The notes: generated by a model from the letters alone, not told the origin. 8,637 nucleotides of DNA from a virus (IMGVR_UViG_2734482537_000006), one strand, 5' to 3'; positions 1 through 832 are shown, numbered from the stretch's first letter. Made by a program: numbers and translations.

Positions 1-83
1 AGGGACAGCTGATAGAAACAGAAGCCACTGGAGCACCTCAAAAACACCATCATACACTAAATCAGTAAGTTGGCAGCATCACC
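1..83 (-). mobile_element. insA: IS1 insertion sequence, terminal 83 bp (terminal inverted repeat plus first codons of insA); the element continues beyond the left edge
   Basis: Reverse complement of 1..83 reads GGTGATGCTGCCAACTTACTGATTTAGTGTATGATGGTGTTTTTGAGGTGCTCCAGTGGCTTCTGTTTCTATCAGCTGTCCCT, which I recognise as the IS1 left end. The terminal repeat is at 61..83 and the insA start (GTG GCT TCT GTT TCT ATC AGC TGT CC, V-A-S-V-S-I-S-C) begins at 28 reading leftward. The match ends sharply at 83/84. Recognition is from memory of the IS1 sequence, not a search. Confidence 0.75.
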
Positions 84-402
84 AGCCTTCTTGAGGCTAC
101 CACCTGTTTTCAGGTGTCATTCAGACGTGATTTGCCCCAGATTGGGAAAGCACGCTTTTTTCTCAGCTATCGTCCTCTTATTTTGCCGTTACATTTCTTT
201 TTGCATTCTAATGATTAATTTACAATAATAATATCGGTAATTATTGAGTAATAATAAATTAATTATTGCAAATGTAATTTAATTCCATCTTCGCGTTATA
301 TTCCAATCTTTAATCTCCGCATGGAACAAGTTGCATGCGTGACTATATTAAGACGACTTATAACCACCAAAACATTTGCTTTGCAAGCAAAAACAGTGAC
401 CA

Positions 403-431
403 TTGACTCTAAGAAAATTCCGATCTATTGT
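403..431 (+). promoter_or_regulatory. Candidate sigma70-type promoter (-35 TTGACT at 403..408, 17-nt spacer, -10 TATTGT at 426..431)
   Basis: Seen in sequence: near-consensus -35 hexamer, 17-bp spacer and a 4/6 -10 hexamer inside an AT-rich region, about 35 nt upstream of the small ORF at 466. AT-rich DNA yields such matches by chance. Confidence 0.25.
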
Positions 432-465
432 TAGGGTCATCAAAGTTACTTAACAGTATTCCGAA

Positions 466-567
466 ATGAAAATACAAAGCAAGCTAATTGTCTTATTAAA
501 CATTATTATTGCATTTATATTATTTGAGCTTTTAGCTCAAAAATTTGGTTTGAGTACATTATTTTAA
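466..567 (+). CDS. Hypothetical 33-aa hydrophobic peptide (MKIQSKLIVLLNIIIAFILFELLAQKFGLSTLF)
   Basis: Hand-translated ATG..TAA ORF, below the size cutoff of the ORF track. A single predicted hydrophobic helix, with a candidate promoter upstream and an intrinsic terminator downstream. No convincing Shine-Dalgarno sequence, and AT-rich DNA favours F/L/I codons, so it may be spurious. Confidence 0.2.
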   Translation: MKIQSKLIVLLNIIIAFILFELLAQKFGLSTLF

Positions 568-716
568 AGCAAGATAAACAATATCGGGCACTCTAGTTTT
601 TATAATTAACAATTAAACGTCCATAAAATGTTATTTACTTTTCTTCGCTATTGTCATATCTTAATATAGTGGCTTACGCCACTCTACTTTCATCACATTT
701 TGTACGTTTATGTACT

Positions 717-746
717 CGCCATGAAGCTCTTTCATGGCGATTTTTT
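717..746 (+). terminator. Rho-independent terminator, plus strand (9-bp stem CGCCATGAA / TTCATGGCG, 5-nt loop, then A+TTTTTT)
   Basis: Seen in sequence: perfect 9-bp inverted repeat at 717..725 and 731..739, followed by a T6 run at 741..746. The T-run is on the plus strand only, so it would stop plus-strand transcripts heading into the 3' end of tfa. Confidence 0.6.
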
Positions 747-832
747 ATTCTTAATCCAAGAACATACTCCCTACCTATAGCAAAATCACTTTTTTAACAA
801 AAGAATAACGTATTTAGGTAATCATTACGAAT

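What the first reader, a model, noticed from the sequence alone, without database searches (positions are those of the whole stretch)
1..832. IS1 end abutting an AT-rich, apparently non-coding segment immediately downstream of tfa
Positions 1..83 are the terminal inverted-repeat end and insA start of IS1, with the element extending off the window. The DNA between IS1 and the tfa stop, especially about 180..830, is very AT-rich by eye, in sharp contrast to the GC-rich tail genes, and contains no ORF of 60 codons or more. In lambdoid prophages the region after tfa is the usual site for accessory cargo, so this may be a horizontally acquired island or the remnant of a cargo locus whose coding part was removed or displaced by IS1. 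Low-GC DNA of this kind is also a typical target for H-NS silencing.
Basis: partly seen in the sequence, partly recalled or inferred. Interest (0 to 1): 0.5.

Follow-up and report, generated by a model that had tools for sequence, protein, structure and literature searches.

The report
IS1 beside a hidden prophage mini-gene
The AT-rich stretch after the phage tail-fibre assembly gene is not leftover junk cut off by IS1: it is a conserved prophage cargo cassette found in about 15% of E. coli genomes. It encodes an unannotated 33-residue membrane protein related to YncL. The IS1 next to it is an ordinary insertion that, in relatives, has deleted some neighbouring spacer DNA.

Summary
Bases 1-83 are the left end of IS1: inverted repeat at 61-83, insA start at 26-28, minus strand. 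Bases 84-832 have 31.5% GC against 54.8% for the rest of the window, and no ORF reaches 60 codons.

Nothing coding was lost. 201 of 280 E. coli genomes with the full segment, and phages mEp332, ev099 and PhiR70_1, have it without IS1. There it continues for 756 bp of spacer to an AppY/YdeO-like AraC regulator gene.

In IS1-bearing relatives the same IS1 junction is paired with two different far-side endpoints, giving 550-bp and 741-bp spacer deletions. There is no target duplication and the regulator gene stays intact. This fits IS1-mediated adjacent deletion.

The segment is not non-coding. Sub-module 255-832 follows tfa in 828 of 5426 genomes, at several prophage sites, and is never annotated. 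It has a promoter-like site (403-431, +) and a 33-codon ORF (466-567, +) under purifying selection (dN/dS 0.04-0.09). The ORF resembles YncL, below the curated cut-off. A very conserved hairpin, single strand and terminator follow (664-752, +).

Whether that 3' element is an sRNA is unproven. Overall: an ordinary IS1 plus a new member of a known kind.

The parts
1..83 (-). Left end of IS1. Terminal inverted repeat IRL at 61-83. The first 9 codons of insA (GTG start at 26-28) are at 1-28. The rest of the element lies off the window.
   Evidence: Direct reading. 97.8-100% matches to annotated IS1. Annotation of L004/L005.
84..168 (.). Right part of a 215-bp block also found at the far ends of other lambdoid prophages, for example O26 next to NleG cargo and uspF. 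IS1 sits inside this block. No conserved ORF.
   Evidence: About 515 genomes match only this piece. L009 aligns to L003 4873-5085 at 96.7%. The 55-aa ORF annotated in ev099 across the IS1 site is broken in L009.
169..254 (.). AT-rich spacer specific to the prophage type that carries the AraC-like regulator gene.
   Evidence: Present only in the 280 full-length genomes. Homology to the Qin-site and sit-type prophages starts at about 255.
255..832 (+). Conserved cargo cassette that follows tfa and is transcribed towards it. Found at several prophage integration sites.
   Evidence: Positions 400-760 are present in 828 of 5426 complete E. coli genomes and are never annotated. Contexts are att-lambda/bio (L003), ydfJ/Qin site (L007, L060) and next to sitABCD (L006, L008, L062, L063). 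48 IMG/VR contigs also carry it.
403..431 (+). Promoter-like site TTGACT-17 nt-TATTGT, about 35 nt upstream of the small ORF.
   Evidence: Consensus scan, 9 of 12 matches. Kept in the 80%-identical haplotype as TTGACT/TATCGT. Function not shown.
466..567 (+). 33-codon gene for a YncL-like small membrane protein, MKIQSKLIVLLNIIIAFILFELLAQKFGLSTLF.
   Evidence: The frame and 33-aa length are kept in all 6 alleles from 55 loci. dN/dS is 0.04 (p=0.001) and 0.09 (p=2e-5). NCBIfam YncL E=1.3e-5, 25 bits, below the cut-off of 35. 11 of 28 residues identical to K-12 YncL. 0 of 20,000 shuffles reach that score.
664..752 (+). Highly conserved structured 3' element. Hairpin at 668-683, single-stranded AU-rich stretch at 684-715, intrinsic terminator stem at 716-740 with a U-run at 741-750. 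It is the end of the cassette transcript and possibly an sRNA.
   Evidence: MFE -27.1 kcal/mol, z = -6.6. Terminator scan. 94% identity where the flanks are 63-80%. No covariation. Rfam matches only sub-threshold.
833..1414 (-). tfa (tail fibre assembly protein). Its stop codon bounds the segment.
   Evidence: Pfam Caudo_TAP, E=4.6e-44. Annotations of homologous loci.

Best explanation
The window starts inside an IS1 copy that sits in the accessory (moron) region at the right end of a lambda-like prophage.

Direction of the genes. In IS1-free relatives the order is tfa, about 1.5 kb of AT-rich DNA, then an AppY/YdeO-like AraC regulator gene, all on the minus strand.

What IS1 did. IS1 landed 756 bp upstream of that regulator gene. 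Every sequenced descendant then lost spacer DNA from the other IS1 end (550 or 741 bp), which is IS1-mediated adjacent deletion. No gene was destroyed.

What remains in the window. Bases 255-832 form a self-contained cassette transcribed towards tfa:
- a sigma-70-like promoter (403-431);
- a 33-codon gene (466-567) for a single-helix inner-membrane protein related to the stress-induced small protein YncL;
- a strong intrinsic terminator (716-750), which stops the transcript from running antisense into tfa.

Likely function (inferred). By analogy with YncL, whose production partly depolarises the membrane and slows metabolism, the prophage copy is probably a lysogenic-conversion factor acting on the host inner membrane.

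Shown versus inferred.
- Shown: IS1 identity, the deletion endpoints, the distribution of the cassette, purifying selection on the ORF, similarity to YncL, and the predicted terminator.
- Inferred: promoter use, translation, membrane location, and physiological role.
For: IS1 and deletions.
- IS1 identity.
- IS1-free relatives are continuous across the site.
- L004 and L005 have a 768-bp IS1 replacing L003 4451-5000. L022 has the same IRL junction but its left flank ends 15 bp from the regulator's ATG. Flanks are CCAATAAG| and |AGCCTTCTT, with no duplication.
- 0 of 5426 genomes have the simple-insertion junction.

Cassette.
- 828 of 5426 genomes carry it, in three kinds of prophage context.
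- Three haplotypes at 100%, 94% and 80% identity all keep a 33-aa ORF.
- Synonymous versus non-synonymous differences are 5.0 vs 1.0 and 11.0 vs 7.0 over 19.7 synonymous and 79.3 non-synonymous sites.
- The other two frames are full of stop codons.
- YncL similarity.
- YncL function: PMC12542507, read.
- Terminator and fold.

Regulator.
- YdeO model E=1.9e-43, and 28% identity to K-12 AppY (E=2e-35).
- K-12 DLP12 has the same layout of tfa, AT-rich spacer and appY.
Against: - There is no Shine-Dalgarno sequence upstream of the ATG at 466 (AGTATTCCGAAATG). K-12 yncL has one.
- The YncL model score of 22.5-25 bits is below the curated 35-bit cut-off.
- Only three haplotypes exist, so the selection test rests on two independent comparisons.
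- No expression data were found. The exact peptide has been called only twice among about 15 billion predicted proteins, and a frameshifted 43-aa variant exists.
- What lies left of IS1 in the window's own source is unknown, because the contig ends inside IS1. The deletion story comes from relatives that share the identical junction.
Confidence: 0.72

Rival explanations
1. The whole AT-rich segment is only a long, H-NS-silenced regulatory spacer upstream of the AraC-like regulator gene. The small ORF would then be a chance reading frame. This is essentially the first reader's view, without the 'lost gene'.
For: The segment lies upstream of, and on the same strand path as, the regulator gene. 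GC is about 0.30. K-12 DLP12 has an analogous 27.6% GC spacer before appY, and appY expression is reported to depend on H-NS among other regulators (PMC10057817). There is no Shine-Dalgarno sequence before the ORF.
Against: About 550 genomes carry 255-832 behind tfa with no AraC-like gene nearby, at the Qin site and in sit-type prophages. The ORF has dN/dS 0.04-0.09 and a fixed 33-aa length across 20% nucleotide divergence. Its similarity to YncL is non-compositional. The cassette points away from the regulator gene.
Confidence: 0.12
2. The conserved 664-752 element is a trans-acting, Hfq-type small RNA. It is made either from its own promoter (TTTACT-17 nt-TATCTT, 634-662) or by processing of the 3' UTR of the small-protein mRNA. 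It would regulate host or phage mRNAs through the single-stranded stretch CUCUACUUUCAUCAYAUUUUGUACGUUUAUGUAC.
For: It has an sRNA-like layout of 5' hairpin, about 32 nt of AU-rich single strand, and a terminator with a U-run (z = -6.6). In the 80% haplotype it has 5 differences in 80 nt, against 130 in 507 elsewhere (p=4e-5). Variation falls in loops, in one G-C to G-U change, or at helix-closing pairs. One strain (L060) has a deletion that leaves just this element next to tfaQ. Weak matches to the sRNA families MicC and Esr41 fall here.
Against: No compensatory changes were seen. The Rfam scores of 22.8 and 15.6 bits are far below the gathering scores of 90 and 102. The candidate promoter varies at -35 position 6 and -10 position 1 in some alleles. 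The U-run is interrupted (UUUCUU) in the two diverged haplotypes. No significant pairing was found to nearby mRNAs. It is not PasB, the known sRNA of this tail region. No expression evidence was found in the literature.
Confidence: 0.3
3. The conserved block around 664-752 is only a transcription terminator that also serves as a homologous-recombination linker at a mosaic boundary between tail-fibre modules and cargo. Its low divergence would reflect recent recombination, not selection on an RNA.
For: Haplotype L053/L062 is a recombinant: its left part is like L040 and its right part like L032, with the switch inside about 690-740. The deletion endpoint in L060 lies at 665/666. Duplicated tfa 3' ends at prophage borders show frequent recombination in this region.
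Against: The low-divergence tract is short (about 85 bp), coincides exactly with the predicted structure, and is flanked on both sides by 63-77% identity in the L032 haplotype. A terminator alone would not require the 32-nt single-stranded stretch to be nearly invariant.
Confidence: 0.35
4. The small hydrophobic peptide and the nearby structured RNA form a type I toxin-antitoxin pair.
For: The peptide is 33 aa and hydrophobic, and its homologue YncL depolarises membranes when produced. A structured RNA lies close by.
Against: The RNA element is on the same strand and downstream, not antisense. No repeat or complementarity links it, or any upstream sequence, to the ORF's 5' region. PADLOC has no match.
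Confidence: 0.05

Closest known systems
IS1 (IS1A) and IS1-mediated adjacent deletions
   Same: Identical terminal repeat and insA start. The full 768-bp copies in relatives sit at the same junction. One IS end is fixed while the far-side endpoints vary, which is the textbook outcome of intramolecular IS1 transposition (established knowledge of IS1).
   Different: No target-site duplication survives, and the ancestral simple insertion was not found in 5426 genomes. The window itself shows only one end.
YncL, a 31-aa stress-induced small membrane protein of E. coli K-12 (NCBIfam NF000537)
   Same: Same size class. Ungapped alignment over residues 1-28 with 39% identity. Shared features: basic N-terminus, an Asn in the helix, and a C-terminal (R/K)-F-G.
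   Different: Scores below the curated family cut-off (25 vs 35 bits). It is prophage-borne rather than at the patD-ortT chromosomal locus. It lacks a Shine-Dalgarno sequence and has a different 3' region.
Phage morons (lambda lom and bor; cargo after tail-fibre genes in lambdoid prophages)
   Same: An autonomous promoter-gene-terminator unit with deviant GC content, placed beside late genes, and present or absent among related phages.
   Different: The payload is a 33-aa peptide that no annotation pipeline calls. Promoter activity is untested.
AppY, PatE and PsrB: prophage-encoded AraC-like regulators placed after tail genes
   Same: The gene beyond IS1 in relatives is an AppY/YdeO-like 247-aa AraC-family protein at the prophage end, preceded by a long AT-rich spacer as in DLP12. 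PsrB and PatE are cited as prophage AraC regulators of acid resistance in PMC10057817.
   Different: Only 28% identical to AppY, and far below the YdeO and GadX equivalog cut-offs. Its identity to PatE or PsrB was not tested. It lies outside the window.
Prophage sRNAs of pathogenic E. coli (PasB, Esr41, IpeX, MicC-like)
   Same: Position in a lambdoid tail or cargo region and an sRNA-like fold. PasB loci are reported to be flanked by Rfam IS009 hits, and an IS009 hit lies in tfa here.
   Different: PasB maps between gpI and gpJ and its probe sequence is absent from the window. Esr41 and MicC matches are far below threshold.

Membership tests
IS1 insertion sequence | 23-bp terminal inverted repeat GGTGATGCTGCCAACTTACTGAT | tested here: met
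   Reverse complement of window 61-83. Annotated 'terminal IR of IS1' in phage P1 matches.
IS1 insertion sequence | insA reading frame starting about 56 nt inside the left end | tested here: met
   GTG at window 26-28 (minus strand). The L004 CDS 5331-6028 maps onto it.
IS1 insertion sequence | Complete 768-bp element with both ends | not testable with these tools
   The window and the identical IMG/VR contigs end inside IS1. In relatives with the same junction the element is 768 bp.
IS1 insertion sequence | 8-9-bp direct target duplication flanking the element | tested here: not met
   In L004, L005 and L022 the far flank is ...CCAATAAG or ...CACCCAATT, against AGCCTTCTT at the near flank. 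This fits a deletion derivative. The simple-insertion junction is absent from 5426 genomes.
YncL small membrane protein family (NCBIfam NF000537) | HMM score at or above the curated cut-off of 35 bits | tested here: not met
   25.0, 23.5 and 22.5 bits for the three alleles. K-12 YncL scores 68.6.
YncL small membrane protein family (NCBIfam NF000537) | Significant, non-compositional sequence similarity over the whole peptide | tested here: met
   E = 1.3e-5 to 7.5e-5 and the only family hit. BLASTP 11 of 28 identical, E=2e-7. 0 of 20,000 shuffles reach the score.
YncL small membrane protein family (NCBIfam NF000537) | Translated, inner-membrane localised, stress-induced | not testable with these tools
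   Only indirect support, from dN/dS of 0.04-0.09.
Phage moron | Own promoter and own terminator flanking the cargo gene | tested here: inconclusive
   Conserved consensus-like promoter at 403-431 and a strong predicted terminator at 716-750. No transcript data.
Phage moron | Present or absent among otherwise related phages, with deviant base composition | tested here: met
   Present in 828 of 5426 genomes. The matched stretch in the O26 prophage end (L009) stops at window 168, so that locus lacks 255-832, and K-12 DLP12 matches only the tfa 3' end. GC 0.30 vs 0.55.
Hfq-type trans-acting sRNA | Intrinsic terminator with U-tail plus a conserved accessible seed | tested here: inconclusive
   The fold and conservation fit. 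But the U-run is interrupted in two haplotypes, and the conservation could reflect recombination.
Hfq-type trans-acting sRNA | Structure supported by compensatory changes | tested here: inconclusive
   0 of 16 pairs change on both sides, and 13 never vary. There is too little divergence to decide.
Hfq-type trans-acting sRNA | Membership of a described family (Rfam) or identity with PasB | tested here: not met
   MicC 22.8 of 90 bits and Esr41 15.6 of 102 bits. PasB is elsewhere.
Type I toxin-antitoxin | Antisense or partly complementary antitoxin RNA | tested here: not met
   No significant duplex or repeat was found.

The most novel reading that the evidence does not exclude
The cassette is a dual-output prophage locus. 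One roughly 310-nt transcript would give a membrane-depolarising YncL-like peptide and also, from its nearly invariant 3' end, a new Hfq-binding sRNA. Together they would reprogramme the lysogen, for example through phage exclusion or dormancy and envelope remodelling, in about 15% of E. coli strains. Separately, the repeated IS1-driven deletions that bring IS1 to 206 bp and then 15 bp from the AraC-like gene could be selected rewiring of that regulator's expression. IS1 is transcribed towards the gene.
Probability: 0.2. Interest if true: 0.6.

Novelty: new member of a known kind. Interest (0 to 1): 0.35.

Why it matters
The IS1 end itself is routine. The useful result concerns a stretch treated as empty by every annotation inspected: no feature was listed under any reported match to 400-760 in the 828 E. 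coli genomes, and the one small ORF a phage record does call nearby (PhiR70_1) ends upstream of it. That stretch carries a small gene under clear purifying selection, related to a membrane-active stress peptide, with a strikingly conserved RNA element behind it. This adds a widespread candidate lysogenic-conversion factor to lambdoid prophages. It gives a concrete target for small-protein and sRNA experiments, and phage mEp332 grows on K-12. It also shows that 'AT-rich, no long ORF' should not be read as non-coding. The IS1 series (one fixed end, two deletion endpoints) is a tidy natural example of IS1-mediated adjacent deletion moving towards a regulator gene.

Tried and rejected
- PasB identity. 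This was suggested by the reported IS009 hits flanking PasB. It is rejected because PasB lies between gpI and gpJ in E2348/69 and its probe sequence is absent from the window.
- MicC, Esr41 or Aar membership. Only sub-threshold Rfam matches, driven mostly by the terminator.
- Pairing of the single-stranded stretch with the TIR of the small ORF, the AraC-like leader, the tfa TIR or K-12 yncL. None was better than shuffled sequences.
- Repeats that could indicate an antitoxin or transposon ends. Only chance-level AT-rich matches. The 12-bp inverted repeat at 342-353/659-670 is not conserved in the L032 haplotype.
- Wider relatives:
  - no exact pattern match in 185,579 species-representative genomes;
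  - only 4 phage records;
  - tblastn with the peptide found nothing, probably because of the short query and the low-complexity filter;
  - the all-protein HMMER scan found only the peptide itself and one frameshift variant.
- The 55-aa ORF that ev099 annotates across the IS1 site. It is not conserved in the O26 copy of the block (ATG to ATA plus an indel), so IS1 does not interrupt a real gene.
- An independent promoter for the 3' element (634-662). It varies at key positions in some alleles, so it is not relied on.
- A covariance-model search for extra copies. There is one copy per locus and no paralogues.

Full report
**1. The observation**

Window 61-83 is the reverse complement of GGTGATGCTGCCAACTTACTGAT, the IS1 terminal repeat. 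The whole of 1-83 matches annotated IS1 copies at 97.8-100% (phage P1, SfIV and others) and IS1A transposase genes in E. coli chromosomes. Mapping the annotated transposase CDS of L004 onto the window puts the GTG start of insA at 26-28 on the minus strand.

GC content is 0.315 for 84-832 and 0.294 for 169-832, against 0.548 for the tail genes at 833-8637. No ORF of 60 codons or more exists in 1-832. The downstream genes, all on the minus strand:
- tfa, 833-1414 (Pfam Caudo_TAP);
- a side tail fibre gene, 1414-4503;
- lom, 4875-5474;
- J, from 5545 to the window edge.

The last three are assigned by alignment to annotated relatives.

**2. What normally lies here**

The 749 bases at 84-832 occur at 98.5-99.6% identity and full length in 280 of 5426 complete E. 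coli genomes. They also occur in phages mEp332, PhiR70_1 and ev099.

In IS1-free copies (L001-L003) the sequence continues leftwards for 756 bp to the start codon of a 247-aa AraC-family regulator gene. That gene is on the same strand as tfa. It is followed by IS remnants and the prophage end at the lambda attachment site next to ybhB-bioA.

The regulator is AppY/YdeO-like. It matches the YdeO model at E=1.9e-43, far below the equivalog cut-off, and is 28% identical to K-12 AppY. K-12 DLP12 has the same layout: tfa, an AT-rich spacer of 27.6% GC, then appY.

**3. What IS1 did**

79 genomes share the window's exact IS1-to-flank junction.

- In L004 and L005 a 768-bp IS1 replaces L003 4451-5000, a 550-bp stretch. 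IS1 then lies 206 bp from the regulator's ATG.
- In IMG/VR contig L022 the same right junction is paired with a left flank ending 15 bp from the ATG, a 741-bp deletion.

A synthetic query for the ancestral simple insertion found no genome among the 5426.

One fixed IS end with variable far endpoints is the classic signature of IS1-mediated adjacent deletion. That attribution is inference from established IS1 biology.

The lost DNA holds a tRNA-Ser-like 3' half and no conserved ORF. The 55-aa ORF annotated in ev099 across the insertion site is broken in the O26 copy of the same 215-bp block. So no gene was removed or interrupted.

IS1 is transcribed towards the regulator gene. An effect on that gene's expression is possible but untested.

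The window's own contig appears to end inside IS1, so its far side is unknown.

**4. The segment is modular**

- Bases 84-168 belong to a block found at the ends of many other prophages. About 515 genomes match only this piece.
- Bases 255-832 form a separate module that follows tfa. It occurs in 828 of 5426 genomes at several integration sites: att-lambda, the ydfJ/Qin site, and next to sitABCD. It has never been annotated.
- About 550 of those genomes lack the 84-254 piece that marks the AraC-type locus, and the Qin-site and sit-type loci inspected show no AraC-like gene nearby. The module therefore cannot simply be that gene's regulatory region.

**5. A hidden gene**

Aligning 57 copies gives three haplotypes, at 100%, about 94% and about 80% identity.

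The plus-strand ORF at 466-567 keeps its ATG, its frame and its 33-codon length in all of them. By the Nei-Gojobori method:

| Comparison | Synonymous differences | Non-synonymous differences | dN/dS | Fisher p |
|---|---|---|---|---|
| Window vs 94% haplotype | 5.0 | 1.0 | 0.04 | 0.001 |
| Window vs 80% haplotype | 11.0 | 7.0 | 0.09 | 2e-5 |

These are over 19.7 synonymous and 79.3 non-synonymous sites. The other two frames are full of stop codons.

The peptide is MKIQSKLIVLLNIIIAFILFELLAQKFGLSTLF. Its only NCBIfam match is YncL:
- E=1.3e-5 at 25 bits, below the cut-off of 35; all three alleles hit the model;
- 11 of 28 residues identical to K-12 YncL without gaps;
- none of 20,000 composition-preserving shuffles reaches the score.

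YncL is a stress-induced small membrane protein. Its production causes sublethal membrane depolarisation and nucleoid condensation (PMC12542507).

Upstream lies a conserved TTGACT-17 nt-TATTGT promoter-like site at 403-431. There is no Shine-Dalgarno sequence, which is the main point against efficient translation.

**6. The 3' element**

Bases 664-752 fold into a 6-bp hairpin, about 32 nt of AU-rich single strand, and a 10-bp terminator stem with a U-run. The energy is -27.1 kcal/mol with z = -6.6.

In the 80% haplotype this stretch has 5 differences in 80 nt, against 130 in 507 elsewhere (p=4e-5). It is flanked on both sides by 63-77% identity. Changes fall in loops, in one C-G to U-G pair, or at the closing pairs of the two helices. 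There are no compensatory changes, so covariation neither supports nor contradicts the fold.

The element has the look of an Hfq-type sRNA, or of a 3'-UTR-derived one. The evidence against or missing:
- Rfam gives only sub-threshold matches: MicC 22.8 of 90 bits and Esr41 15.6 of 102 bits.
- A candidate promoter of its own is not strictly conserved.
- The U-run is interrupted in two haplotypes.
- No local target stands out.
- The recombinant haplotype L053/L062 shows that recombination occurs inside this very block.
- It is not PasB, the known sRNA of lambdoid tail regions.

I therefore treat it as the terminator and 3' end of the cassette transcript. An sRNA role is an open possibility, at about 0.3.

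**7. Comparison with what is known**

- The IS1 end is a member of IS1. The repeat and insA were tested and met. The target duplication was tested in relatives and not met, as expected for a deletion derivative.
- The peptide works like, and is distantly related to, YncL, but it fails the curated family threshold. It is best called a YncL-like prophage paralogue.
- The cassette has the anatomy of a phage moron.
- A type I toxin-antitoxin reading fails for lack of any complementary RNA.

**8. Verdict**

The finding as written, an IS1 abutting AT-rich DNA, is real but ordinary. Its 'remnant of a lost cargo gene' reading is refuted by the IS1-free relatives.

The added value is an unannotated, selected small-protein gene with a conserved RNA tail that is widespread in E. 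coli prophages.

Novelty: new member of a known kind. Interest: about 0.35.

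Noticed in passing
window 873-1071 (-): The Rfam family IS009 (RF02111) matches at 218 bits, entirely inside the tfa coding sequence. This 'sRNA family' appears to be the 3' part of tail-fibre-assembly genes rather than a separate RNA gene.
   Followed up: partly
window 1600-3015 (within the tail fibre gene 1414-4503, minus strand): The central part of the side tail fibre gene does not align to the otherwise 93-97% identical relatives, apart from a 326-bp island at 1787-2112. 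This looks like a swapped host-range module.
   Followed up: no
L003 4832-4890 (inside the 550 bp deleted in IS1-bearing relatives): A tRNA-Ser-like 3' half on the minus strand. Rfam detects it through a plastid trnS-overlapping model (E=4e-7). It is probably an old attachment-site scar between two cargo modules.
   Followed up: partly
L022 (IMG/VR 2660238269_000005), about 10849-11632: A second IS1 deletion endpoint only 15 bp upstream of the AraC-like gene's ATG removes its whole native upstream region. IS1 is transcribed towards the gene, so this is a possible IS-driven expression change.
   Followed up: partly
L060 (E. coli O169:H41, CP024223) 2990-3090: A deletion of about 1.2 kb relative to L007 ends exactly at the 5' edge of the conserved hairpin (window 665/666). 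Only the 3' RNA element is left next to tfaQ.
   Followed up: partly
L064 (K-12 DLP12) 1535-4431: DLP12 has the same architecture of tfaD/tfaX, a 620-bp spacer of 27.6% GC, then appY. It shares no nucleotide similarity with the window's spacer beyond the tfa 3' end.
   Followed up: partly
L007 3100-3220, L060 2880-2990, L009 2850-3250: Short duplicated tfa 3'-end fragments and a recurring motif (CCAACCGCAG.ACGTT.TTGCATAC) occur near prophage borders. They may be recombination or att-related repeats.
   Followed up: no
protein P0003 (43 aa): A frameshifted variant of the small ORF (MKIQ...LLAQKIWFEYIILKQDKQYRAL) exists in the public protein collection, so at least one allele is disrupted.
   Followed up: no
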